From sequence record OR896824.1: a stretch of 64,000 nucleotides of DNA; one strand, 5' to 3'. Both the position numbers and the translations under genes were made by a program. The DNA comes from Escherichia phage SmurfNell. The notes beneath the pieces were generated by a model. It was not told the origin of the DNA, did no database searches, and worked only from the letters and a program-made list of their open reading frames with translations. Of the stretch, positions 16,762 to 55,244 are shown in pieces. Each line of letters begins with the position of its first letter. Position 1 is the first letter of the stretch.

Positions 16762-17211
16762 ATGAAGGCAGCTTTGCTTCTAATAGCTGCCCTAACCTAT
16801 AGCTTCAATAGTCATGCTACCTACGACTCAAAGCAGATTGATTGCATTGCAAAAAATATCTACTTCGAAGCACGAGGTGATGGCACAAAGGGAATGATTG
16901 CAGTTGCACAGGTTACTAAAAACCGTGTAAACTCCGGTAAATTCCCTGATTCTTACTGTAAAGTAGTATATCAGTCTAACCAATTCAGCTGGACAGCTAA
17001 AAAACCTAGGGTTGATAAAACAGATGAGACTTGGCAAGTTGCTAAGAACTTAGCTAGAGTGATATACTACGTTGATTTACCACAAGATCCAACACAGGGG
17101 GCGTTATACTTCCATAGCGGTAAAGATAAACCGTACTGGACAAAGAAGTTTAAGAAAACAACGAAGATTCAAGGCCATACGTTCTACAAGCCTGTGGTTA
17201 AGAAAACTTAA
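16762..17211 (+). CDS. secreted cell wall hydrolase (SleB-like)
   Basis: Signal peptide MKAALLLIAALTYSFNSHA; IAKNIYFEARGD...AVAQVTKNRV...QFSW pattern of the cell wall hydrolase family; ATG at 16762. Confidence 0.55.
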   Translation: MKAALLLIAALTYSFNSHATYDSKQIDCIAKNIYFEARGDGTKGMIAVAQVTKNRVNSGKFPDSYCKVVYQSNQFSWTAKKPRVDKTDETWQVAKNLARVIYYVDLPQDPTQGALYFHSGKDKPYWTKKFKKTTKIQGHTFYKPVVKKT

Positions 17212-17219
17212 AAATTCGA

Positions 17220-17248
17220 TTGCTTAAAGACTTAAATTTCTGTATAAT
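17220..17248 (+). promoter_or_regulatory. early promoter (TTGCTT-17-TATAAT)
   Basis: consensus hexamers plus ATAAATTAATGAGAGG box. Confidence 0.6.
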
Positions 17249-17279
17249 ACTTTCATAAATTAATGAGAGGAAGCGAAAT

Positions 17280-17450
17280 ATGAAATCAGTTGTAATTATT
17301 GGTGTTAATACCCGTGGTATCCGTACTACGAAAACAGTTAAAACTACTAACGTTGCTGAAATTACTACAAACCCTAAGAAGTTTGATTTCGCCAAAGTCT
17401 CGGCAGTTATGACAGAACAATCTTTTAACCAAGCACTGGGAATTAAATAA
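17280..17450 (+). CDS. small hypothetical protein (56 aa)
   Basis: ORF below the track cutoff, found by reading downstream of the promoter; stop overlaps the next start. Confidence 0.4.
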   Translation: MKSVVIIGVNTRGIRTTKTVKTTNVAEITTNPKKFDFAKVSAVMTEQSFNQALGIK

Positions 17451-17893
17451 TGGAAGAAAATATTCTAAATGTTTTGCGTAGGGCTTTGCAGGAATCTAAG
17501 ATTGATGGCTCTGATAAAGAGGTAGCTAAAAGCTACCAGACCATAATCGAAGATCTTCAGCGTGTTGATAAAGACTTCATTACTTCTGAACAGTTTGTGT
17601 CTTATCTCAAAGCTCAGCTGAAAAGCATTAATCAGACGAAAGCTAAACTTCATGGTCAAGACCTTGATAATTATAGCTTGCAGTCTGCTCAGTATGAATA
17701 TATACTGAACAAATGGCTACAACAGTATCTGCCGCCTCAGCTTTCTGATTCTGAGATTCGCAAATACTTTGCAGAATTAGTTAAGTTGAACCCTGGGATT
17801 ACGAAGAGTATGCTGATGAAAGCGATTAAGGAAGAATTCCCTGGTCGTTATGACGGTGGCATCGCTGCTCAGGTTGCTGGCGAATTTAACTAA
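17450..17893 (+). CDS. hypothetical protein
   Basis: 147 aa ORF. Confidence 0.5.
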   Translation: MEENILNVLRRALQESKIDGSDKEVAKSYQTIIEDLQRVDKDFITSEQFVSYLKAQLKSINQTKAKLHGQDLDNYSLQSAQYEYILNKWLQQYLPPQLSDSEIRKYFAELVKLNPGITKSMLMKAIKEEFPGRYDGGIAAQVAGEFN

Positions 17894-17901
17894 AAATTGA
17901 T

Positions 17902-17930
17902 TTGCTAAACGCTTCAAAATTCTGTATAAT
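17902..17930 (+). promoter_or_regulatory. early promoter driving a non-coding region
   Basis: TTGCTA-17-TATAAT; no ORF of 60 aa or more follows for about 850 nt. Confidence 0.6.
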
Positions 17931-17936
17931 AGATTC

Positions 17937-18789
17937 ATAAATTAGAGAACAGCGAGCCGATTACGCTGAGTGAGTTTAGTGATTCCTACTAGGATAGCTA
18001 CTCCACTGAATAGAGTCGGTGAGTTGGAGACTAGTAAGTACTCTGAGAGAGGCTACGAGCTAACGCTTATTGCTATTGATAGGGAACTGAAAATCTGCGG
18101 AAAACTCGGGAGCTGTCCCGAAATCTCGTAAACTCTTCTCTAGTTTATGTTAGTGGGGTGTCGAACTGACTTATGTGATAACACTGCCGTCCTAGTATAA
18201 ACGGTAATATCAAACCGTAACTGGTGGAAGATGCAGGTTCGAATCCTGCGGTCGGAAAGAATCAGATAACTCGGGCTTATACCGGATAAGCATTCGCTGC
18301 TGTAGTACATACTATGACGGTTCAGGAGGTACGCCTCCTGATCAGTATTAGGTTAGAATCGAAACAGCTAAACCACGAGGAAACCTGACGGCCTCAACCA
18401 AACTCGGAACTCGGGATCACTGCCTAGTGTGTACCCCGTTTAACCTGAGACTAGGCATCCAGCTTCGCATCGAAAATCGGAGGTGCGATTCTAACAGACC
18501 GCGTGAATATGAGAGTGGGAAACGCTGACATGAGAGATGTCACTAATGGTGCCCAATAGTACAGGTAATTCGCGATAATTCCTGTTGAGCGGCAGCAGTA
18601 GGCTGGGAGTCATGACCTAAGCCTAACCGAGTTCTTCACATACGGAGAACATAACCACAAAGTCACCCTGACTTAAACTGGAAGATATTGTCTGACGGAA
18701 GGGCTGCAGAGCTTAATCTGAGGGGGCTGACCCTACCTACCGTCGGGTATCTTTAAGAGCTTTTATAAGAGTTCTTAAAAATACCTAAA
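17937..18789 (+). ncRNA. promoter-driven structured non-coding region (candidate RNA gene or tRNA precursor leader)
   Basis: No ORF of 60 aa or more on either strand; many GC-rich hairpins; tRNA-like T-arm GCAGGTTCGAATCCTGC at 18233-18249 without a matching acceptor stem. Confidence 0.3.
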
Positions 18790-18864
18790 CGGGGTGTAGT
18801 CTAAGGGATAGGCAGGAGTCTTCTAAATTCCTTTATGCAGGTTCGAATCCTGTCACCTCGGCCA
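18790..18864 (+). tRNA. tRNA-Arg (anticodon UCU)
   Basis: Hand-folded cloverleaf: acceptor CGGGGTG/CACCTCG, anticodon loop CTTCTAA, T-loop TTCGAAT, encoded CCA. Confidence 0.65.
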
Positions 18865-18890
18865 ATTTTATTAACTGCTAGGAAAATAAA

Positions 18891-19091
18891 GTGAAAACAC
18901 GATATATAGTAAAAGTAGTAGGTGAACATTCACAAGTAAATACCACCGATGTTACAGCGCTAGCATTTGAAGTAGTCTCCGGTATAGTCATATTTCATAA
19001 CGGAGATATCAAAGCTCCTGAATTTGCTGTGGATGCTAGCCTGTTTATTTCTGCAACTAAAGTAACTGTAGTAGCTAACCCTTCTAAATAA
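18891..19091 (+). CDS. hypothetical protein
   Basis: 66 aa ORF with GTG start directly upstream of the SPFH gene. Confidence 0.3.
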   Translation: MKTRYIVKVVGEHSQVNTTDVTALAFEVVSGIVIFHNGDIKAPEFAVDASLFISATKVTVVANPSK

Positions 19092-19102
19092 TAAGGAAAT
19101 AT

Positions 19103-20047
19103 ATGTTTACTAAAAACACTAAAGAACTGACTTCCGATCAAAAAGTAATTCGTACTATTAAACGTTGGGGCGTTGGTGCTGTAGTTGGTCTTGGCGCTCT
19201 TATTCTGGCTCTCAATTCCTATACAGTTGTTCAGGACGGTACGGTTAAAACTCAGACTTTCCTGGGTAAAGTTAGTCCTAATCCTGTATTGCCGGGGTTC
19301 CATATTGTCAACCCATTCGCCTCTTTTGATACTTTTAGTACGAAAGATATTTCTATGAAACTGGATAAACTTCAGGTTCCTAGCCAGGATAAGTTTAAGT
19401 CCACTGTTGACATTACCGTTATGTTGCAGTTTGATGGTGCTAAAGCTCCTATGAACCGTGTTAACGCAGGTACTCAGGATCAAGCTCTGAACAAGTACGT
19501 TGAAGAGAAGATGCTATCTACGATTCGTGAGTTTGGTAAGTCTGTACCAAAAGCACAAGATCTGTTCGACGCTAAGATTCAGGCTCAACTGCAAACTGCT
19601 ATTCAGCAAGAAGTAGAAGAGTACGCGCGTCCTTATGGTTACACGGTTAAGCAAGTATTCCTTCAGGATATTACTCTGCCACCTGTAATCATGGAACAGG
19701 TACAAAACACAAAAGTTCGTGAAGAACAAGTTAACGCCGCTAAAGCTGAATTGGCTCGTGTTGAACAAGAAGCACAGCAGAAAGTTAAGCAAGCTGAAGC
19801 TGATCGTTCTGCTCGTGAAAACATGGCAGTAGCTAACGAACGTGACGCAGATGCTAAACTGTACGCAGCTAAGAAAGAAGCTGAAGCTAACGCCGCGCTG
19901 CAACGTACCATTACTCCTGAAATGATTCGTTGGAAGCAGCTGGAAGTTGAAATGCTTCGTGCTGAAAAATACCAAGGTGGTGTACCGCAGACTATTGTTG
20001 GTACTGGCTACGATGGTCAAATGATCATGGATATGCGTAACAAGTAA
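19103..20047 (+). CDS. SPFH/band-7 (prohibitin/HflK-like) membrane protein
   Basis: N-terminal TM helix WGVGAVVGLGALILAL, central SPFH-like region, C-terminal Ala/Glu/Lys-rich coiled coil. Confidence 0.55.
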   Translation: MFTKNTKELTSDQKVIRTIKRWGVGAVVGLGALILALNSYTVVQDGTVKTQTFLGKVSPNPVLPGFHIVNPFASFDTFSTKDISMKLDKLQVPSQDKFKSTVDITVMLQFDGAKAPMNRVNAGTQDQALNKYVEEKMLSTIREFGKSVPKAQDLFDAKIQAQLQTAIQQEVEEYARPYGYTVKQVFLQDITLPPVIMEQVQNTKVREEQVNAAKAELARVEQEAQQKVKQAEADRSARENMAVANERDADAKLYAAKKEAEANAALQRTITPEMIRWKQLEVEMLRAEKYQGGVPQTIVGTGYDGQMIMDMRNK

Positions 20048-26015: not shown

Positions 26016-26228
26016 AACATCAGAGTAGCGTGATGTACTGCAAAGACCCAAAGTCCGGGGTGGACTTCTTGATTCAAAGGAGCAGGCATTAATTATCATT
26101 CTAGCGTGGTGGAGAGGGGACACCAGCTTGCCGAGGGTAGAAGCTCGTTCGATTCGAGTGAAAGAATGGTTCTCGTAAATCCGCACAAGTGATAGCAGGT
26201 TCAAGTCCTGCCTAGATTGACTTATTAT

Positions 26229-26302: not shown

Positions 26303-26550
26303 AATTTAGGTTTCTGCTTCCTAGAGAACTGACGCCTAGATAAACAAGGCGATGAGTTTCCGGCCGGTTCTAGTCGCTGAAAATCCTCCCGACCAGGTAG
26401 GTGTAAGTAAACGAAAGTTTACTTATTAAGTAAGTCCGACACATCGGCGGGTGTGTTCTAGTACTTAAAGAAGGTCTCGCAAACTTTCTCGCTAGCATGA
26501 GTTGATAGCTCGGTGACTTACCTAATAAGTAAATTTATTAAAAAATGTAG

Positions 26551-28018: not shown

Positions 28019-28244
28019 GTTCACTAAGGTATTAGCTCGACCTAGGACTGGCTGCCAAAAAGCACGGTTGCAATTAGACCCCTAATGGCGGGGGATACTT
28101 TGCAAGAAGTTCTAGATTAGTCCACTAGATTCAGCGGCAACTGAATAGTGTATCGGGTTTGTGAAGAGCGGTTATCCTCTACTGGCTAATGTCTGAGGGT
28201 AATACGCACGCCGAGCTAATAGCCTTAGTAAACTTAAAGATTTT
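28019..28244 (+). other. non-coding leader between promoter and tRNA-Ala (possible small RNA)
   Basis: About 225 nt without an ORF, GC-balanced unlike the AT-rich spacers. Confidence 0.25.
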
Positions 28245-29151: not shown

Positions 29152-29466
29152 AATCTTGAAGTATGCCGGAATCGGTAGACGGGGCTTCCTAAAGGGCGTA
29201 AGAGGAACATCCACTCCTCATAAGATACCCGAAAACGAGGCTGAGATAAATGGTCTATCTCGTGAAGGTTCAAGTCCTTCTGCTTCTTGATATTCAATGG
29301 CTCAAAGAGTAACGGTGCACCTTTCTAGAGAATTTTCTGGGCGAGAATCCAGAAGTAATCAACTAGTTGTTAGTGTGATGAGTTTCGGAGAGCCGCCACA
29401 ATTGAAGTCTTTAGAATGGGTATCGCCCTTTAGCCCCTCCGAAAGGGATAACTAGAGATTTCAATT

Positions 29467-48991: not shown

Positions 48992-49008
48992 ACGTTAACA
49001 AAATCTTC

Positions 49009-49038
49009 TTGACAACTCATTGTGGCACATGTTATAAT
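49009..49038 (+). promoter_or_regulatory. sigma70-type promoter (TTGACA-18-TATAAT) facing the repeat region
   Basis: Perfect hexamers; no ORF follows. Confidence 0.5.
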
Positions 49039-49078
49039 AATCTCATAGATTAAAAACAACTCTTGTTTTGAACTCTAG

Positions 49079-49190
49079 GGGCGATGATTATTACACTTAG
49101 TATTACGTCTATACGTTGCGACAGCACGAGTATAGATCTAATTACTAAGTCTTCCGTAATACTCACGCGCCCCACGGGTAAGCTCTCATG
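49079..49190 (+). other. large imperfect hairpin, candidate small RNA or processing/terminator structure
   Basis: Nested inverted repeats GGGGCG...AGTATTACG / CGTAATACT...CGCCCC and CTATAC/GTATAG, followed by T-rich tract. Confidence 0.3.
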
Positions 49191-49316
49191 AAATGGGGGC
49201 TACTTTACTTTTTATTTATATGAATATATTTAAAGGCAATATTAACGTTCAAGATGATACACCTGTTGCCGCTCATCTGCTAGGATGGCTCAACACTTTC
49301 TTCTAGACTCCTAAGT

Positions 49317-49420
49317 TTCTAGGAAAACTCTCGCCAACTCAGGCGGTTTTCATGTTCCTAGAAACTCCAGCAATAGGTGGTTTAATACAGGGCGGTTATA
49401 GGGAGGGCGGTTATTTCTAG
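49317..49420. repeat. short direct repeats (GGCGGTT-type and TTCTAGRAA-type)
   Basis: GGCGGTT at about 49333, 49390 and 49405; TTCTAGGA/TTCTAGAA at about 49317, 49356, 49415 and 49477. Confidence 0.45.
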
Positions 49421-49456
49421 GAGACATTTTTTGAAAACACATTTCTGGAAATTACT

Positions 49457-50059
49457 GTCGGATTTGCACACTGTGTTTCTAGAAATTTATGGTCGGATTT
49501 GCACATTGATAGGAGTCTCCAAAGTTTTTAGGAACACTGAAAATAGCAGCATTATTTCGGGCCGAAGGCCCATGTTTGCCTGAGTTTTTTAGAGTCCCAG
49601 GAATTTTCACTTGTCAAGCTATTTTGCCCCATTTTGCTAATAAAATTTCGCAGAATCTCCACTTATCTCAATTCTATCCAAAACATCCCACATTATCCCC
49701 AAAAACGCAGCAAACCGGTGCTGAAGCACCACTACAGCTGCACCCTCCATAGTTCCTCCCAAAAACCTCGTCGGATTCGCACTTCTCCCCAAACCCACAC
49801 AATCACACACCCTCTCATCGAAGTCACAAAAATATTCCTGAAACCATAAATCTGTCTCCTAGCAAACTCATGTCGTATTTGCACATATACGGCTGGATTT
49901 GTGCGCAGCACGAGTCTGCCCGAGTTTTTAGGAAAATTCATTGTCGGATTCGCACACTATAAAAATATTTGCCATCGGATTTGCACACTACCAAAAATTG
50001 TCGGATTCGCACATACACGCTGGCACGTAATCCGTGGGGGCAAATGTCGGATTTGCACA
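49457..50059 (+). repeat. iteron-like array: nine direct copies of 14 bp motif GTCGGATT(T/C)GCACA
   Basis: Copies near 49457, 49492, 49770, 49872, 49893 (degenerate), 49943, 49974, 50000 and 50046, all in the same orientation. Confidence 0.7.
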
Positions 50060-50095: not shown

Positions 50096-50258
50096 AAATG
50101 CAAATGATAATGAGATTGATTCGCATTTGAGAAGTTGAATGCGAATGCGAATGAGAATAGTTATCATTTGACTACCGGAATACGAATGAGAATGATTCGC
50201 ATTTAGGAAGGGAAACGCGAATGATAATGAGAATGATTCGCATTTAGGAAGCGAAGTG
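50096..50258 (+). repeat. three direct repeats of about 27 bp, GA(A/T)TGAGAATGATTCGCATTTAGGAAG-like
   Basis: Copies near 50108, 50184 and 50228; each contains inverted GCGAAT/ATTCGC arms. Confidence 0.6.
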
Positions 50259-54402: not shown

Positions 54403-54424
54403 TAGGATAACCTGTATATAAGTC

Positions 54425-54433
54425 TGTGGATAA
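54425..54433 (-). promoter_or_regulatory. DnaA box (TGTGGATAA)
   Basis: Exact reverse complement of TTATCCACA. Confidence 0.5.
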
Positions 54434-54473
54434 GTCGCCAAATCGTCGCCTATTGCGTCAAGTTATTTTGTGC

Positions 54474-54482
54474 TGTGGATAA
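54474..54482 (-). promoter_or_regulatory. DnaA box (TGTGGATAA)
   Basis: Second exact copy 49 bp from the first; one-mismatch copy AGTGGATAA near 54758. Confidence 0.5.
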
Positions 54483-54810
54483 CTTTGTGAATAACCTAAA
54501 TGATAGTGGTTCTCACTTAGCCGATAGTTTCTTATAGTTATTATTTCTCTTTAATTTATATGTATATTATATAATATAAAATAGTTAGTTGGCTAATAGG
54601 TTTTTAGAGTATTAATAGTCTGCTAACTGTTTCGGCTGTTACAATCCACCAGCGTGATCATCATCCTAGCGATTATTAGTCTGCTAATGATCTGATACAC
54701 GTCCAGACTTATTTGTCAATGCAAAATAATAGCAGAAAATACTTTTTTGAAAAATCAAGTGGATAACTCATTAAATTTCATTTTTGCTTTTTGTATAAGT
54801 TATTAACAGC

Positions 54811-54842
54811 CCCTAAAACGCTCTGTAAGCGATTCTAAGCGC
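54811..54842 (+). repeat. 30 bp direct repeat (copy 2)
   Basis: CCTAAAACGCTCTGTAAGCGATTCTAAGCGCC, near-identical to 50419-50448. Confidence 0.6.
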
Positions 54843-55244
54843 CTCAAAGGAAAAGATAAGCAATCATAAGGGGTACACCGAGAAAACCTCACCACGAGGA
54901 TTTTAGATTTTGTCAAGTAGGCAAGAGCAGATATAAATGAAAAAATTACTTGCTAAAATGGTTGTTTTAGTGTTATTCGCGCGCTCGTTTCATTAAATTT
55001 AGTGCGCCGCTGGATGTTTGCGGAGACTGGTTTTCTTTACGTTTCTTTACAAAAATAAGGTTGCGCCCTTCTCGGTATTCTCCTATTATTTATCACGTAG
55101 GGCGGCAATGACGAACTACACGGCGGGGATAACAGCGATTGACAGTCTGTTTGACCTTTCAAAACCCTGCCATGCTCTTTAAAAATTAGGGAACATCTTA
55201 AAGCCTATCGGCGGTAAACTTAGATATTATAAGGAATCGACGAT

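What the first reader, a model, noticed from the sequence alone, without database searches (positions are those of the whole stretch)
17902..18864. Consensus early promoter drives about 850 nt with no ORF, ending in tRNA-Arg
A full-strength promoter (TTGCTA-17-TATAAT) is followed by about 850 nt lacking any ORF of 60 aa or more on either strand. The region is GC-richer than the surrounding coding DNA, full of stable hairpins (for example CAGGAGG-TACG-CCTCCTG at about 18325), and contains an orphan tRNA-like T-arm (18233-18249) before a complete tRNA-Arg(UCU) at 18790. This is unusual for a compact phage genome and may be a long structured RNA, degenerate tRNA genes or a cis-regulatory RNA.
Basis: seen in the sequence. 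Interest (0 to 1): 0.6.

Follow-up and report, generated by a model that had tools for sequence, protein, structure and literature searches.

The report
Large structured phage RNA (RNAX)
This gene-free stretch is the local copy of phage T5's "RNAX", an approximately 850-base, heavily folded non-coding RNA with a built-in tRNA look-alike; its existence has been noted in the T5 reference annotation, but its job is unknown and it resembles the giant self-assembling RNAs found beside tRNA clusters in other phages.

Summary
The window matches Escherichia phage SuperGirl, a T5-like Epseptimavirus. Positions 17894-18890 are its longest stretch with no ORF of 60 aa or more. A T5-type early promoter lies at 17902-17930 and tRNA-Arg(UCU) at 18790-18864.

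The interval is orthologous to rnaX, which the T5, BF23 and DT57C/DT571-2 records annotate as "stable RNA with unknown functions", next to promoter P16-17 and abutting tRNA-Arg. SuperGirl lacks this annotation and carries two small CDS calls that look spurious.

Comparison of about 45 distinct homologs shows a real, large structured RNA:
- Invariant short motifs separate helices that change sequence but keep pairing. The 3' core is 96.6% paired, with 28 of 41 pairs showing double changes.
- The central arm is 98.3% paired in a MAFFT alignment made without reference to the structure.
- The "orphan T-arm" is a complete tRNA-like elbow module on top of a covarying 12-bp helix. It is not a free pseudogene.
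- No Rfam family other than tRNA matches.
- Divergent relatives occur in Klebsiella, Providencia and Proteus T5-like phages.
- Two hairpin loops carry self-complementary sequences. One changes between palindromes across lineages, as in GOLLD and OLE kissing loops.

Function is inferred only: an accessory, dispensable trans-acting RNA of the tRNA island, possibly self-assembling.

The parts
17902..17930 (+). Sigma-70-type T5 early promoter (TTGCTA-17-TATAAT). The likely start is A17937.
   Evidence: Found by the consensus scan. Conserved in all homologs. Annotated as 'promoter P16-17' in T5 and BF23 and as a T5-consensus promoter in AKFV33.
17937..18789 (+). RNAX, a large structured non-coding RNA of about 853 nt. 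The 5' end is inferred from the promoter. The 3' end is inferred to be made by RNase P cleavage at the 5' end of tRNA-Arg.
   Evidence: Homologous to the annotated misc_RNA rnaX of T5 (719 nt), BF23 (784 nt) and DT571/2 (636 nt). Supported by covariation. Contains no conserved ORF. Matches no Rfam family other than tRNA.
17937..17949 (+). P1, 5' strand (AUAAAUUAGAGAA). Pairs with 18136-18148.
   Evidence: A 12-15 bp duplex is kept in all 21 distinct end combinations. Short forms such as DT571/2 and AKFV33 keep it as a simple hairpin with compensatory changes (AAAUUAGAUG/CAUCUAAUUU). Changes in strand length are coordinated on the two sides.
18136..18148 (+). P1, 3' strand (UUCUCUAGUUUAU).
   Evidence: RNAalifold also recovers the inner 6 bp.
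17950..18135 (+). Optional 5' domain enclosed by P1. It holds the P2 hairpin (17950-17968), a variable hairpin (17969-18008), a variable sub-domain, and the hairpin CGGGA-GCUG-UCCCG (18107-18120).
   Evidence: Absent from T5, DT571/2 and AKFV33 and present in most other homologs. The variable hairpins differ in sequence between lineages but stay self-complementary.
17956..17960 (+). Pseudoknot, loop side (GCCGA in the P2 loop). Pairs with UCGGU at 18016-18020.
   Evidence: Partners covary across genera: GCCGA/UCGGU in T5-like phages, GCAUA/UAUGU in Providencia phages, GCAGA/UCUGU in Proteus phages. One Epseptimavirus variant (L007) has a U.U mismatch in the extended version of the pairing.
18016..18020 (+). 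Pseudoknot, 3' side (UCGGU within the conserved GAAUAGAGUCGGUGAGUU).
18166..18179 (+). Long arm helix, 5' strand (CUGA-C-UUAU-G-UGAU). Pairs with 18261-18274.
   Evidence: On a MAFFT alignment of 21 distinct sequences, all 12 pairs are 99.6% paired and 6 pairs show changes on both sides. No shuffle out of 500 reaches the observed covariation score, and the slid controls collapse.
18186..18257 (+). tRNA-like arm: acceptor-like stem, D-arm and T-arm with the canonical elbow nucleotides, and a degenerate, lineage-variable 'anticodon' arm.
   Evidence: Rfam tRNA score of 29.3 bits, and 29-38 bits in homologs. ARAGORN does not call it in the window. In other phages ARAGORN assigns inconsistent identities, Ser(act) and SeC(tca). 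It is replaced by a short hairpin in L006 and L007, and it carries a long extension in the Klebsiella types.
18261..18274 (+). Long arm helix, 3' strand (AUCA-G-AUAA-C-UCGG).
18275..18291 (+). Hairpin GCUUA-UACCGGA-UAAGC.
   Evidence: Two of its 5 pairs covary (UA, CG, AU at one pair; CG, GC at another) and it is 100% paired.
18292..18512 (+). Variable middle region. It includes the hairpins 18322-18339 (CAGGAGG-UACG-CCUCCUG) and 18465-18488 (UCGCA...UGCGA).
   Evidence: Replaced by unrelated sequence in Tequintavirus. The 18465-18488 stem covaries: UCGCA/UGCGA, UCACA/UGUGA, UUACAUA/UAUGUAA.
18513..18684 (+). Conserved 3' core, a multi-helix junction. It is closed by GUGG (18515-18518) pairing with CCAC (18655-18658). 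Components: H1 18526-18542; a helix 18547-18554/18589-18597 that encloses H2; H2 18561-18585; H3 18600-18624; H4 18631-18650; H5 18661-18673.
   Evidence: RNAalifold consensus. Covariance model R1 recovers divergent sequence types at 30-64 bits. The structure is 96.6% paired, 28 of 41 pairs have double changes, no shuffle out of 500 matches it, and the slid controls give 7 pairs at most.
18570..18575 (+). Self-complementary UCGCGA in the H2 loop, a candidate symmetric kissing-loop site.
   Evidence: Other lineages carry different palindromes at this position: CGCGCG (T5), CUCGAG, GUGCGCAC, CCGCGG, and UCGCGA again in Providencia and Proteus relatives. Shuffle probabilities are given. One exception was found: RN29 has UAGCGA.
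18609..18616 (+). Invariant self-complementary GUCAUGAC in the H3 loop.
   Evidence: Identical in every T5-like and Klebsiella-phage variant examined, while the H3 stem covaries.
18684..18779 (+). 3' terminal domain: an irregular long hairpin (18684-18751, with helices 18684-18687/18748-18751 and 18692-18702/18736-18746) and a terminal 12-bp hairpin (18752-18763/18768-18779).
   Evidence: The terminal hairpin is recovered by RNAalifold. The proposed long helix holds in three of the four sequence types, with some double changes. The T5 type could not be aligned, so this domain is only moderately supported.
18790..18864 (+). tRNA-Arg(UCU), co-transcribed with RNAX. Its 5' processing site defines the RNAX 3' end.
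   Evidence: ARAGORN and Rfam at 49.3 bits. rnaX abuts tRNA-Arg in the T5, BF23 and DT571/2 annotations.
17450..17893 (+). Upstream gene, homolog of T5.081, weakly YqeY/GatB-tail-like. Given as context and as a candidate RNA-binding partner.
   Evidence: Pfam YqeY at 23.8 bits, below the cutoff of 27. It is syntenic with the RNA in Tequintavirus, Epseptimavirus, Priunavirus and Novosibvirus, but was not found in Sugarlandvirus.

Best explanation
SHOWN. The interval is the SuperGirl ortholog of the T5 gene rnaX. It is a large RNA of about 850 nt, read from the + strand. The fold is under selection, not any reading frame.

Its architecture, from 5' to 3':
- A terminal helix P1 encloses an optional 5' domain that contains a pseudoknot.
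- A long coaxial arm is tipped by a tRNA-like elbow module.
- A lineage-variable middle region follows.
- A conserved 3' multi-helix core carries invariant loop and joining motifs.
- A 3' terminal hairpin domain ends the RNA.

INFERRED, how it is made. Host sigma-70 RNA polymerase starts at the early promoter, near A17937. RNase P cleavage at the 5' end of the adjoining tRNA-Arg releases the RNA from the downstream message. RNAX then accumulates as a stable RNA, as the T5 annotation states.

INFERRED, how it works. It is a trans-acting accessory RNA of the phage tRNA island, of the same functional kind as the GOLLD and ROOL RNAs. I estimate a probability of about 0.35-0.4 that it forms homo-dimers or higher oligomers through the two self-complementary loops, H2 (a palindrome that changes between lineages) and H3 (GUCAUGAC, invariant). 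In that model the tRNA-like elbow is displayed at the end of a long arm, to engage a tRNA-binding factor or to act as a decoy for one. The benefit would be conditional, for example protection of the phage's translation supply in hosts that carry tRNA-targeting defences, because the gene is lost without harm in laboratory deletion mutants.
For: Identity with rnaX:
- BLAST and covariance-model matches to the annotated rnaX of DT571/2, DT57C, BF23 and T5, with the same order of T5.081 homolog, promoter, RNA and tRNA-Arg.

Structure:
- 3' core: 96.6% of cells paired, 28 of 41 pairs changed on both sides, 0 of 500 shuffles as good, slid controls give 7 pairs at most.
- Central arm, on a MAFFT alignment that was not fitted to the structure: 98.3% paired, 12 pairs with double changes, 0 of 500 shuffles.
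- P1 is kept in all variants, with compensatory changes and coordinated length changes.
- The pseudoknot covaries across three genera.
- Many G-U pairs occur on the + strand. They would be A.C mismatches on the - strand, which fixes the strand.

Not coding:
- The largest ORFs are 53 and 56 aa.
- The 53-aa ORF is lost in a near-identical relative.
- The antisense ORF has no codon-position bias, with 22/42, 27/43 and 26/44 variable columns.
- Indels are not multiples of three.

Breadth:
- 573 phage records match at BLAST level.
- The family is present in Tequintavirus, Epseptimavirus and Sugarlandvirus, with a divergent version in Priunavirus and Novosibvirus.
- It is absent from bacterial genomes and from E. 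coli.

Self-complementary loops:
- The H2 loop carries UCGCGA, CGCGCG, CUCGAG, GUGCGCAC or CCGCGG in different lineages, and UCGCGA again in Providencia and Proteus relatives. The H3 loop GUCAUGAC is invariant.
- The product of the shuffle probabilities for the four independent H2 types is about 1e-5.
- The same signature, a switch between palindromes, was used as evidence for intermolecular kissing loops in OLE and GOLLD, whose multimers were solved by cryo-EM (PMC12286853).

Dispensability and context:
- The T5 st(0) deletion runs from inside T5.081 to just before tRNA-Asp and removes rnaX.
- The roughly 8-kb tRNA-rich region that T5 loses spontaneously carries anti-retron functions.
Against: - No experimental data on the transcript could be read here. 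'Stable RNA' rests on annotation lines in GenBank records from one laboratory, and no paper on RNAX was found.
- Function is entirely inferred.
- The kissing-loop idea is only suggestive. Individual loop probabilities are modest, 0.006 to 0.29.
- In the commonest type the predicted loop exposes only CGCG, and two lineages have only CGCG.
- One genome, RN29, has UAGCGA, which is not self-complementary.
- The Providencia and Proteus relatives lack the GUCAUGAC loop.
- The tRNA-like arm is replaced by a plain hairpin in some Epseptimaviruses, so it cannot be indispensable.
- The YqeY-like neighbour is missing from Sugarlandvirus and its Pfam score is below threshold.
- Alignment A3 was fitted to the model, which inflates pair counts to some degree.
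- The 5' variable domain and the 3' terminal domain could not be tested formally, because MAFFT misaligned them.
Confidence: 0.6

Rival explanations
1. RNAX works as a monomeric ribonucleoprotein. The small YqeY/GatB-tail-like protein encoded immediately upstream (T5.081 homolog, 17450-17893) binds the tRNA-like elbow. The complex acts on tRNAs or on tRNA-handling enzymes, and the palindromic loops are intramolecular or protein-binding features.
For: The order YqeY-like gene, RNA, tRNA-Arg is conserved from T5-like phages to Providencia and Proteus phages. GatB-tail/YqeY domains are tRNA-binding modules (established knowledge). The elbow nucleotides A14, G18G19, A21, G53, U54-A58 and C56 are intact in the arm (read against the Rfam alignment). 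T5.081 and rnaX are lost together in the st(0) deletion.
Against: The Pfam YqeY match is weak, 23.8 bits against a cutoff of 27. Sugarlandvirus keeps RNAX but shows no homolog of the protein; only 3 of the 454 matching records are Klebsiella phages. Some Epseptimaviruses keep the protein but have lost the tRNA-like tip.
Confidence: 0.15
2. The interval is a cis-acting leader or processing platform. The long structured 5' region exists to control transcription, processing or stability of tRNA-Arg and the downstream 66-aa and SPFH/band-7 genes, and has no role of its own once cut off.
For: No terminator-like site follows tRNA-Arg on the + strand within 17000-20000, so the same promoter probably also serves the downstream genes. 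In T5 the next annotated terminator lies beyond T5.080.
Against: The RNA keeps its conserved core where the downstream context differs. Two ORFs lie between it and tRNA-Arg in Sugarlandvirus and Priunavirus. A homing-endonuclease gene is inserted before tRNA-Arg in several Epseptimaviruses. A size of 640-1300 nt with invariant loop motifs is far more than known leaders need. The T5 annotators list it as a stable RNA species.
Confidence: 0.1
3. The interval is a graveyard of decayed tRNA genes: spacer DNA between the promoter and tRNA-Arg that contains one or more tRNA pseudogenes and is not selected as a unit.
For: The element sits at the edge of a 30-tRNA cluster. One module scores as tRNA at the Rfam threshold. 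Wang et al. annotated it as a pseudo-tRNA in T5.
Against: Only about 72 of 853 nt are tRNA-like. The rest has non-tRNA helices with extensive compensatory change and invariant motifs across genera. The flanks of the tRNA-like module pair with each other in a covarying 12-bp helix.
Confidence: 0.04
4. The interval encodes one or more small proteins, such as the CDS called in the SuperGirl record at 17970-18131 (+) and 18140-18310 (-), or a product made through an unusual start codon or a frameshift.
For: Automatic annotation calls small CDS here in many records.
Against: The CDS calls differ from record to record. The 53-aa ORF disappears in a near-identical relative. The antisense ORF shows no third-position excess and its homologs differ in length by non-multiples of three. 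Every frame carries 12-26 stop codons. Whole modules are swapped or deleted between relatives.
Confidence: 0.02
5. The conserved features act at the DNA level, for example as protein-binding palindromes, a replication or recombination site, or a nick site, and not in RNA.
For: The conserved loop sequences are DNA palindromes (TCGCGA, CTCGAG, CCGCGG, GTCATGAC).
Against: The helices tolerate G-U pairs on the + strand only. The palindromes sit in the loops of covarying RNA hairpins. The annotated T5 nick sites lie elsewhere.
Confidence: 0.02

Closest known systems
RNAX (gene rnaX) of bacteriophages T5, BF23, DT57C and DT571/2, annotated as 'stable RNA with unknown functions'
   Same: Homologous sequence, with conserved blocks at 78-85% identity and covariance-model scores of 172-218 bits. 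Same position between the T5.081 homolog and tRNA-Arg(UCU). Same promoter, P16-17.
   Different: The SuperGirl and Epseptimavirus version has the optional 5' domain of about 185 nt (17950-18135) that T5 and DT571/2 lack. It also has a different middle region and a different 3' terminal-domain sequence. No structure or function of RNAX has been published that I could find.
[quoted passage not shown]
   Same: Encoded by phages next to tRNA islands. Longer than 600 nt. Conserved 3' region with a variable 5' region. A tRNA or tRNA-like element can be embedded in it. Symmetric loops switch between palindromes. Function unknown (PMC12286853, compared).
   Different: No match to the Rfam model, even at E <= 10 on the isolated region. 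The motifs and helices differ. The hosts are Enterobacterales and the phages are lytic T5-like phages. Multimer formation has not been tested for RNAX.
ROOL RNA (Rumen-Originating, Ornate, Large)
   Same: A phage or prophage RNA near tRNA islands, with a pseudoknotted ornate fold. It forms RNA-only cages through kissing loops and its function is unknown.
   Different: No Rfam match. RNAX has an integrated tRNA-like arm and a modular, mosaic domain content.
Small stable RNAs of phage tRNA clusters: T5 RNAI, RNAIII, RNA1, RNA2, RNA2H and RNAIV, and the T4 stable RNAs C and D (the T4 RNAs are cited from my own knowledge)
   Same: Non-coding, co-transcribed with phage tRNAs, released by tRNA-processing enzymes, and of unknown function. 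Homologs of several T5 species are present elsewhere in this window.
   Different: They are 100-170 nt long. RNAX is 5-10 times larger, has its own promoter and has a multi-domain fold.
tmRNA and bacterial Y-RNA-like YrlA, non-coding RNAs that carry a tRNA-like domain (cited from my own knowledge)
   Same: An acceptor, D-arm and T-arm elbow mimic is embedded in a larger RNA, with the anticodon arm replaced.
   Different: ARAGORN finds no tmRNA and Rfam gives no tmRNA or YrlA match. The acceptor end of the RNAX module is not free. It continues into a 12-bp helix, so aminoacylation is implausible.

Membership tests
T5-type RNAX (rnaX) | Sequence and profile homology to the annotated rnaX genes | tested here: met
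   BLAST to DT571/2, DT57C, BF23 and T5. Model R1, built from the 3' core, scores the T5 locus at 171.9 bits, DT571/2 at 212.6 and the SuperGirl locus at 197.5.
T5-type RNAX (rnaX) | Genomic position: own early promoter downstream of the T5.081 homolog, with the 3' end abutting tRNA-Arg(UCU) | tested here: met
T5-type RNAX (rnaX) | Accumulates as a stable RNA in infected cells | not testable with these tools
   Only the annotation note 'stable RNA with unknown functions' is available. No primary paper is held in the library.
GOLLD RNA | Match to the curated Rfam covariance model | tested here: not met
   cmscan of 17890-18880 against all 4227 Rfam 15 families at E <= 10 returns only tRNA and a spurious plastid motif. 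Eight homologous loci give the same result.
GOLLD RNA | Phage-encoded, adjacent to a tRNA island, more than 600 nt, with a conserved 3' part and a variable 5' part | tested here: met
   compared with the description in PMC12286853. This is a resemblance, not evidence of homology.
GOLLD / ROOL / OLE-type self-assembling RNAs | Homo-oligomer held by symmetric kissing loops, with loop palindromes that covary | tested here: inconclusive
   The H2 loop switches between CGCG-, UCGA- and GCGC-centred palindromes and the H3 loop GUCAUGAC is invariant. One genome breaks the palindrome. Assembly itself cannot be tested here.
ROOL RNA | Match to the curated Rfam covariance model | tested here: not met
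Functional (decoding) tRNA, applied to the module at 18186-18257 | Cloverleaf scoring above the Rfam tRNA gathering threshold | tested here: met
   29.3 bits against a gathering score of 29, so borderline. Homologs score 29-38 bits.
Functional (decoding) tRNA, applied to the module at 18186-18257 | Regular anticodon arm with a consistent anticodon across orthologs | tested here: not met
   ARAGORN does not call it in the window. Elsewhere it gives Ser(act) or SeC(tca). The arm is a 3-bp stem with a 6-nt loop here, is extended by a long hairpin in the Klebsiella types, and the whole tip is replaced in L006 and L007.
Functional (decoding) tRNA, applied to the module at 18186-18257 | Free 5' and 3' acceptor ends after processing | tested here: not met
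   The sequences flanking the acceptor-like stem form an internal loop and a covarying 12-bp helix. Whether RNase P nevertheless cuts here cannot be tested with these tools.
tmRNA | tRNA-like domain plus tag reading frame, detectable by ARAGORN or Rfam | tested here: not met

The most novel reading that the evidence does not exclude
RNAX is a third, independent class of phage tRNA-island RNA, after GOLLD and ROOL, that assembles into an RNA-only homo-oligomer. Assembly would use its two self-complementary loops. The oligomer would display tRNA-like elbows on long arms and would serve as a decoy, sponge or container for tRNA-directed host factors, such as anticodon nucleases of defence systems. 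Because it sits in T5, a genetically tractable model phage of E. coli K-12, the function of this whole kind of RNA would become directly testable.
Probability: 0.3. Interest if true: 0.85.

Novelty: new member of a known kind. Interest (0 to 1): 0.58.

Why it matters
Large RNAs (over 600 nt) with complex folds and no known function are rare. The best-known phage examples, GOLLD and ROOL, also lie beside tRNA clusters. They were recently shown to form large RNA-only cages, but their function is unknown and their hosts are hard to work with.

RNAX has sat in the T5 reference annotation as a single unexplained line. It is missing from Rfam and from most T5-like genome records, where spurious small proteins are often called in its place.

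The results here give an experimentally accessible system for asking what such RNAs do:
- RNAX is a covariation-supported, multi-domain RNA.
- It is conserved across at least five genera of Demerecviridae.
- It has an integrated tRNA mimic and candidate kissing loops.
- It sits at the edge of the T5 tRNA-rich region (TRR), which is dispensable in the laboratory and carries anti-retron functions.

There are also practical consequences. The family deserves an Rfam model. The CDS calls inside it should be removed from annotations of T5-like genomes, several of which belong to phages used in therapy and biocontrol collections.

Tried and rejected
- Known RNA families. Rfam 15 was searched at permissive thresholds on the region, the tRNA island, the whole window and eight homologous loci. 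Only tRNA matched. Membership of GOLLD, ROOL, tmRNA, ribozyme, intron and riboswitch families is therefore rejected at profile level.
- Host mimicry. blastn of RNAX against 5,426 complete E. coli genomes found nothing.
- Bacterial or prophage origin. The universal 23-nt motif is absent from 185,579 species genomes. It was found only in 11 metagenome contigs and 29 IMG/VR contigs, all T5-like.
- Coding potential. Rejected.
- Literature. Five full-text searches and one look-up found no paper that describes RNAX. Only context on the T5 tRNA-rich region was found.
- RNAalifold on MAFFT alignments of the 5' domain and of the 3' terminal domain. This recovered only the invariant helices, because the variable sub-domains are misaligned. 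A hand-drawn structure for the terminal domain fits three of the four sequence types.
- An early reading of a small hairpin GUC-GAACU-GAC at 18161-18171 was dropped in favour of the covarying 12-bp long-range helix.
- A possible intramolecular partner for the H2 loop, CCGCG at 18499-18503, was dropped because Tequintavirus lacks it.
- The band-7 protein was tried as a synteny marker for distant relatives. It is shared with T4-like phages and was not useful.
- Prospective test of the palindrome rule on five newly fetched genomes. Four conform but add no new loop type, and one (RN29) violates the rule.
Full report
WHAT IS THERE

The 991 bases around the finding are 100% identical to Escherichia phage SuperGirl (MZ501105; Demerecviridae, Markadamsvirinae, Epseptimavirus). 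They are 99% or more identical to many Stitch-like Salmonella and E. coli phages.

- The promoter-like site TTGCTA-17-TATAAT lies at 17902-17930.
- No ORF of 60 aa or more occurs on either strand. The maxima are 56 and 53 aa.
- G+C rises to 0.45-0.50, against 0.33-0.41 in the flanks.
- The hairpin is at 18322-18339 and the T-arm at 18233-18249.
- tRNA-Arg(tct) is at 18790-18864.

Positions 17894-18890 form the longest stretch of the 64-kb window that no ORF of 60 aa or more covers, 997 nt against 834 nt for the next.

The promoter pattern alone is no better than chance in this AT-rich DNA: 5 sites were found and 5.4 expected. What counts is that this site is conserved in position and sequence in all homologs. 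It is also annotated as promoter P16-17 in T5 and BF23.

One detail needs correction. The T-arm is not orphan. It is part of a complete tRNA-like module at 18186-18257, which reaches the Rfam tRNA threshold (29.3 bits).

IT IS A KNOWN BUT UNCHARACTERISED GENE

In the T5 reference record AY543070 the homologous interval is annotated misc_RNA rnaX, 'RNAX, stable RNA with unknown functions'. It is 719 nt long, starts at promoter P16-17 and ends exactly where tRNA-Arg begins. The same annotation is found in BF23 (784 nt) and in DT57C and DT571/2 (636 nt).

The other T5 record (AY587007) marks only a pseudo-tRNA there. SuperGirl and most other records have no RNA feature. Instead they carry a changing set of small 'hypothetical protein' calls.

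I found no paper that describes RNAX. Rfam 15 has no family that matches it, whether tested on the region alone at E <= 10, on the whole window, or on eight homologous loci.

ANATOMY FROM COMPARISON

I collected about 45 distinct versions from GenBank phages, IMG/VR and metagenomes.

The element is a mosaic. Short invariant motifs are separated by segments that differ completely between lineages yet remain self-complementary. The invariant motifs include:
- CAGCGAGCCGAUUACGCUG
- GAAUAGAGUCGGUGAGUU
- UAAACUCUUC
- GUGGGGUG
- ACACUGCC
- GAUAACU
- AAGUGGGAAA
- GGAGUCAUGACC
- AUAACCAC
- AGUCACCYUGACUWWAACUGGAA

Lengths run from 640 nt (DT571/2) to about 1300 nt (Klebsiella Sugarlandvirus).

Formal covariation tests:
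1. The 3' core (18513-18684). RNAalifold on 14 sequences gives a junction closed by GUGG/CCAC with five inner helices. A covariance model built from it recovers three other sequence types at 30-64 bits. On the resulting 24-sequence alignment, 96.6% of cells are paired and 28 of 41 pairs show changes on both sides. No shuffle out of 500 reaches these values. Sliding the partners by 1-3 columns leaves 7 such pairs at most. This alignment was fitted to the model, which favours the structure somewhat.
2. The central arm (18150-18303). Here the alignment is plain MAFFT, made without reference to the structure. A 12-bp helix (18166-18179 with 18261-18274), the acceptor-like stem, the T stem and the hairpin 18275-18291 are 98.3% paired, with 12 pairs changed on both sides. 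No shuffle out of 500 matches the cells paired, the cells changed on both sides or the covariation score. The count of further pair types was not distinguishable from shuffles (227 of 500).
3. P1. The first 13 nt of the transcript (17937-17949) pair with 18136-18148 in every variant. The short forms that lack the 5' domain keep P1 as a simple hairpin with compensatory changes.
4. The pseudoknot. The P2 loop and the conserved downstream segment covary across genera: GCCGA/UCGGU, GCAUA/UAUGU and GCAGA/UCUGU.

Frequent G-U pairs on the + strand fix the strand.

NOT CODING

- The 53-aa ORF disappears in a near-identical relative through 1-nt indels.
- The recurrent antisense ORF has equal variability at the three codon positions: 22/42, 27/43 and 26/44.
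- Homologous segments differ in length by non-multiples of three: 129, 154, 155, 168 and 169 nt.

THE tRNA-LIKE MODULE

Its acceptor-like stem, D-arm and T-arm keep the nucleotides that build the tRNA elbow. Its 'anticodon' arm, in contrast, varies:
- It is a 3-bp stem with a 6-nt loop in the window.
- It covaries in other lineages.
- It carries a long inserted hairpin in the Klebsiella types.
- The whole tip is replaced by a short hairpin in two Epseptimavirus variants.

ARAGORN gives it no identity in the window, Ser(act) in T5 and SeC(tca) in phage 26175I. Its flanks pair with each other. It is therefore a tRNA-derived structural arm of RNAX and not a free pseudogene.

RANGE

- BLAST finds the element in 573 phage records, nearly all Tequintavirus, Epseptimavirus and Sugarlandvirus.
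- The universal motif is absent from 185,579 bacterial and archaeal species genomes.
- RNAX has no similarity to E. coli genomes.
- Following the upstream YqeY-like gene led to Providencia (Priunavirus) and Proteus (Novosibvirus) phages. There a promoter-driven, ORF-free element of about 700 nt lies before tRNA-Arg.
- That element shares several features with RNAX, in a partly different order and without the GUCAUGAC loop: the P2-plus-pseudoknot unit, UAAACUCU, a T-arm, the GUGUCGAAC...UUAUGU...AACACU / AAGAAUAGGAUAACUG arm, the GCUUAUA hairpin, and a hairpin whose loop is GUCGCGAA.

HOW IT MAY WORK

Shown: a promoter, a long structured RNA and an abutting tRNA.

Inferred from established knowledge of tRNA operons: RNase P cleavage at tRNA-Arg releases the RNA.

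Two observations point to a mechanism.

First, the loop of hairpin H2 is self-complementary in nearly every lineage, but with different sequences:
- UCGCGA in the commonest type
- CGCGCG in T5
- CUCGAG in a second type
- GUGCGCAC in a third type
- CCGCGG in the Klebsiella phages
- UCGCGA again in the Providencia and Proteus relatives

The H3 loop GUCAUGAC is invariant. Adjacent self-complementary bases cannot pair within one loop. A switch between palindromes is the signature used to support the symmetric intermolecular kissing loops seen in the cryo-EM structures of OLE and GOLLD (PMC12286853).

The individual probabilities are modest, 0.006-0.29. Their product over the four independent types is about 1e-5. 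Two lineages have only CGCG. One genome (RN29) has UAGCGA, found when I tested the rule on five further genomes. I therefore rate self-assembly at about 0.35-0.4.

Second, the gene is dispensable and lies in a region rich in conditional functions. The T5 st(0) deletion runs from inside T5.081 to just before tRNA-Asp and removes rnaX. The roughly 8-kb tRNA-rich region that T5 strains lose spontaneously protects against retron systems that cleave tRNA.

My best reading is an accessory, trans-acting RNA. It may be oligomeric, and it may use its tRNA-like elbow to bind or divert a tRNA-directed factor.

A monomeric ribonucleoprotein with the YqeY-like neighbour is the main rival. It is weakened by the sub-threshold Pfam score and by the absence of that protein from Sugarlandvirus.

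COMPARISON WITH WHAT IS KNOWN, AND NOVELTY

The element is a member of the T5 RNAX family. Homology and synteny were tested and met. Stability in cells could not be tested.

It works like, but is not a detectable member of, the GOLLD and ROOL families. The shared features are phage origin, a tRNA-island location, size, a conserved 3' part with a variable 5' part, an embedded tRNA-like element and palindromic loops. The Rfam models do not match.

I file it as a new, unannotated member of a known kind. What appears to be new is the evidence for its fold, its domain mosaic, its range across Demerecviridae and the kissing-loop signature.

Interest is moderate to high. The existence of the RNA is not a surprise to T5 specialists. 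However, an ornate RNA of unknown function in a model coliphage makes the open question of what such RNAs do directly testable.

Noticed in passing
window 17970-18131 (+) and 18140-18310 (-): The SuperGirl record annotates two hypothetical proteins (bas29_0079 and bas29_0080) inside RNAX. Neither behaves as coding: the first ORF is lost in a near-identical relative, and the second shows no codon-position bias. Many T5-like records carry similar, mutually inconsistent CDS calls in this interval.
   Followed up: yes
loci L007, L031, L064-L066 and L092, between the RNAX 3' hairpin and tRNA-Arg (equivalent to window ~18789/18790): A CDS of about 510 nt, named an HNH homing endonuclease in some records, is inserted exactly between RNAX and tRNA-Arg in several Epseptimaviruses. 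This suggests a homing site at that junction.
   Followed up: partly
T5 (L005/L030), KookSpook (L035) and metagenome locus L072; equivalent to window ~18661-18683: These genomes carry an insertion of about 85 nt bounded by a duplicated AGTCACCTTGAC(T/A)TAAACTGGAA motif, so the invariant H5 hairpin occurs twice.
   Followed up: no
window 29155-29298, 28030-28164, 26435-26486, 26097-26221: Homologs of the T5 small stable RNAs RNA1, RNA2H, RNAIV (partial) and RNA2, all annotated in T5 and all of unknown function, lie between the tRNA genes of this window.
   Followed up: partly
window 54411-55244 and 48992-49633; tandem repeats at 49940-50017 and 50103-50245: These are the next-largest stretches without an ORF of 60 aa or more (834 and 642 nt). 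Two imperfect tandem arrays lie nearby (31 nt x 2.8 and 41 nt x 3.7). Rfam at gathering thresholds finds nothing there.
   Followed up: no
window 17450-17893: Different records name the T5.081 homolog upstream of RNAX 'recombination-related exonuclease', 'tRNA amidotransferase' or 'YqeY-like'. Pfam supports only a sub-threshold YqeY match (23.8 bits against a cutoff of 27). It stays next to the RNA from T5 to the Proteus phages but was not found in Sugarlandvirus.
   Followed up: partly
locus L095 (Salmonella phage vB_STy-RN29) 1303-1475: This genome's RNAX has point changes at two otherwise invariant features: the H2 loop is UAGCGA instead of UCGCGA, and the H5 stem is GUCC instead of GUCA. 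The BLAST match to the rest of the element is also truncated. This may be a decaying copy or sequencing errors.
   Followed up: no
window 17894-17948, and other promoters in the fetched loci: The roughly 55-nt promoter block upstream of RNAX recurs at 80-90% identity at several other early promoters of the same genomes. The T5 record AY587007 annotates these as 'repeat c'.
   Followed up: no
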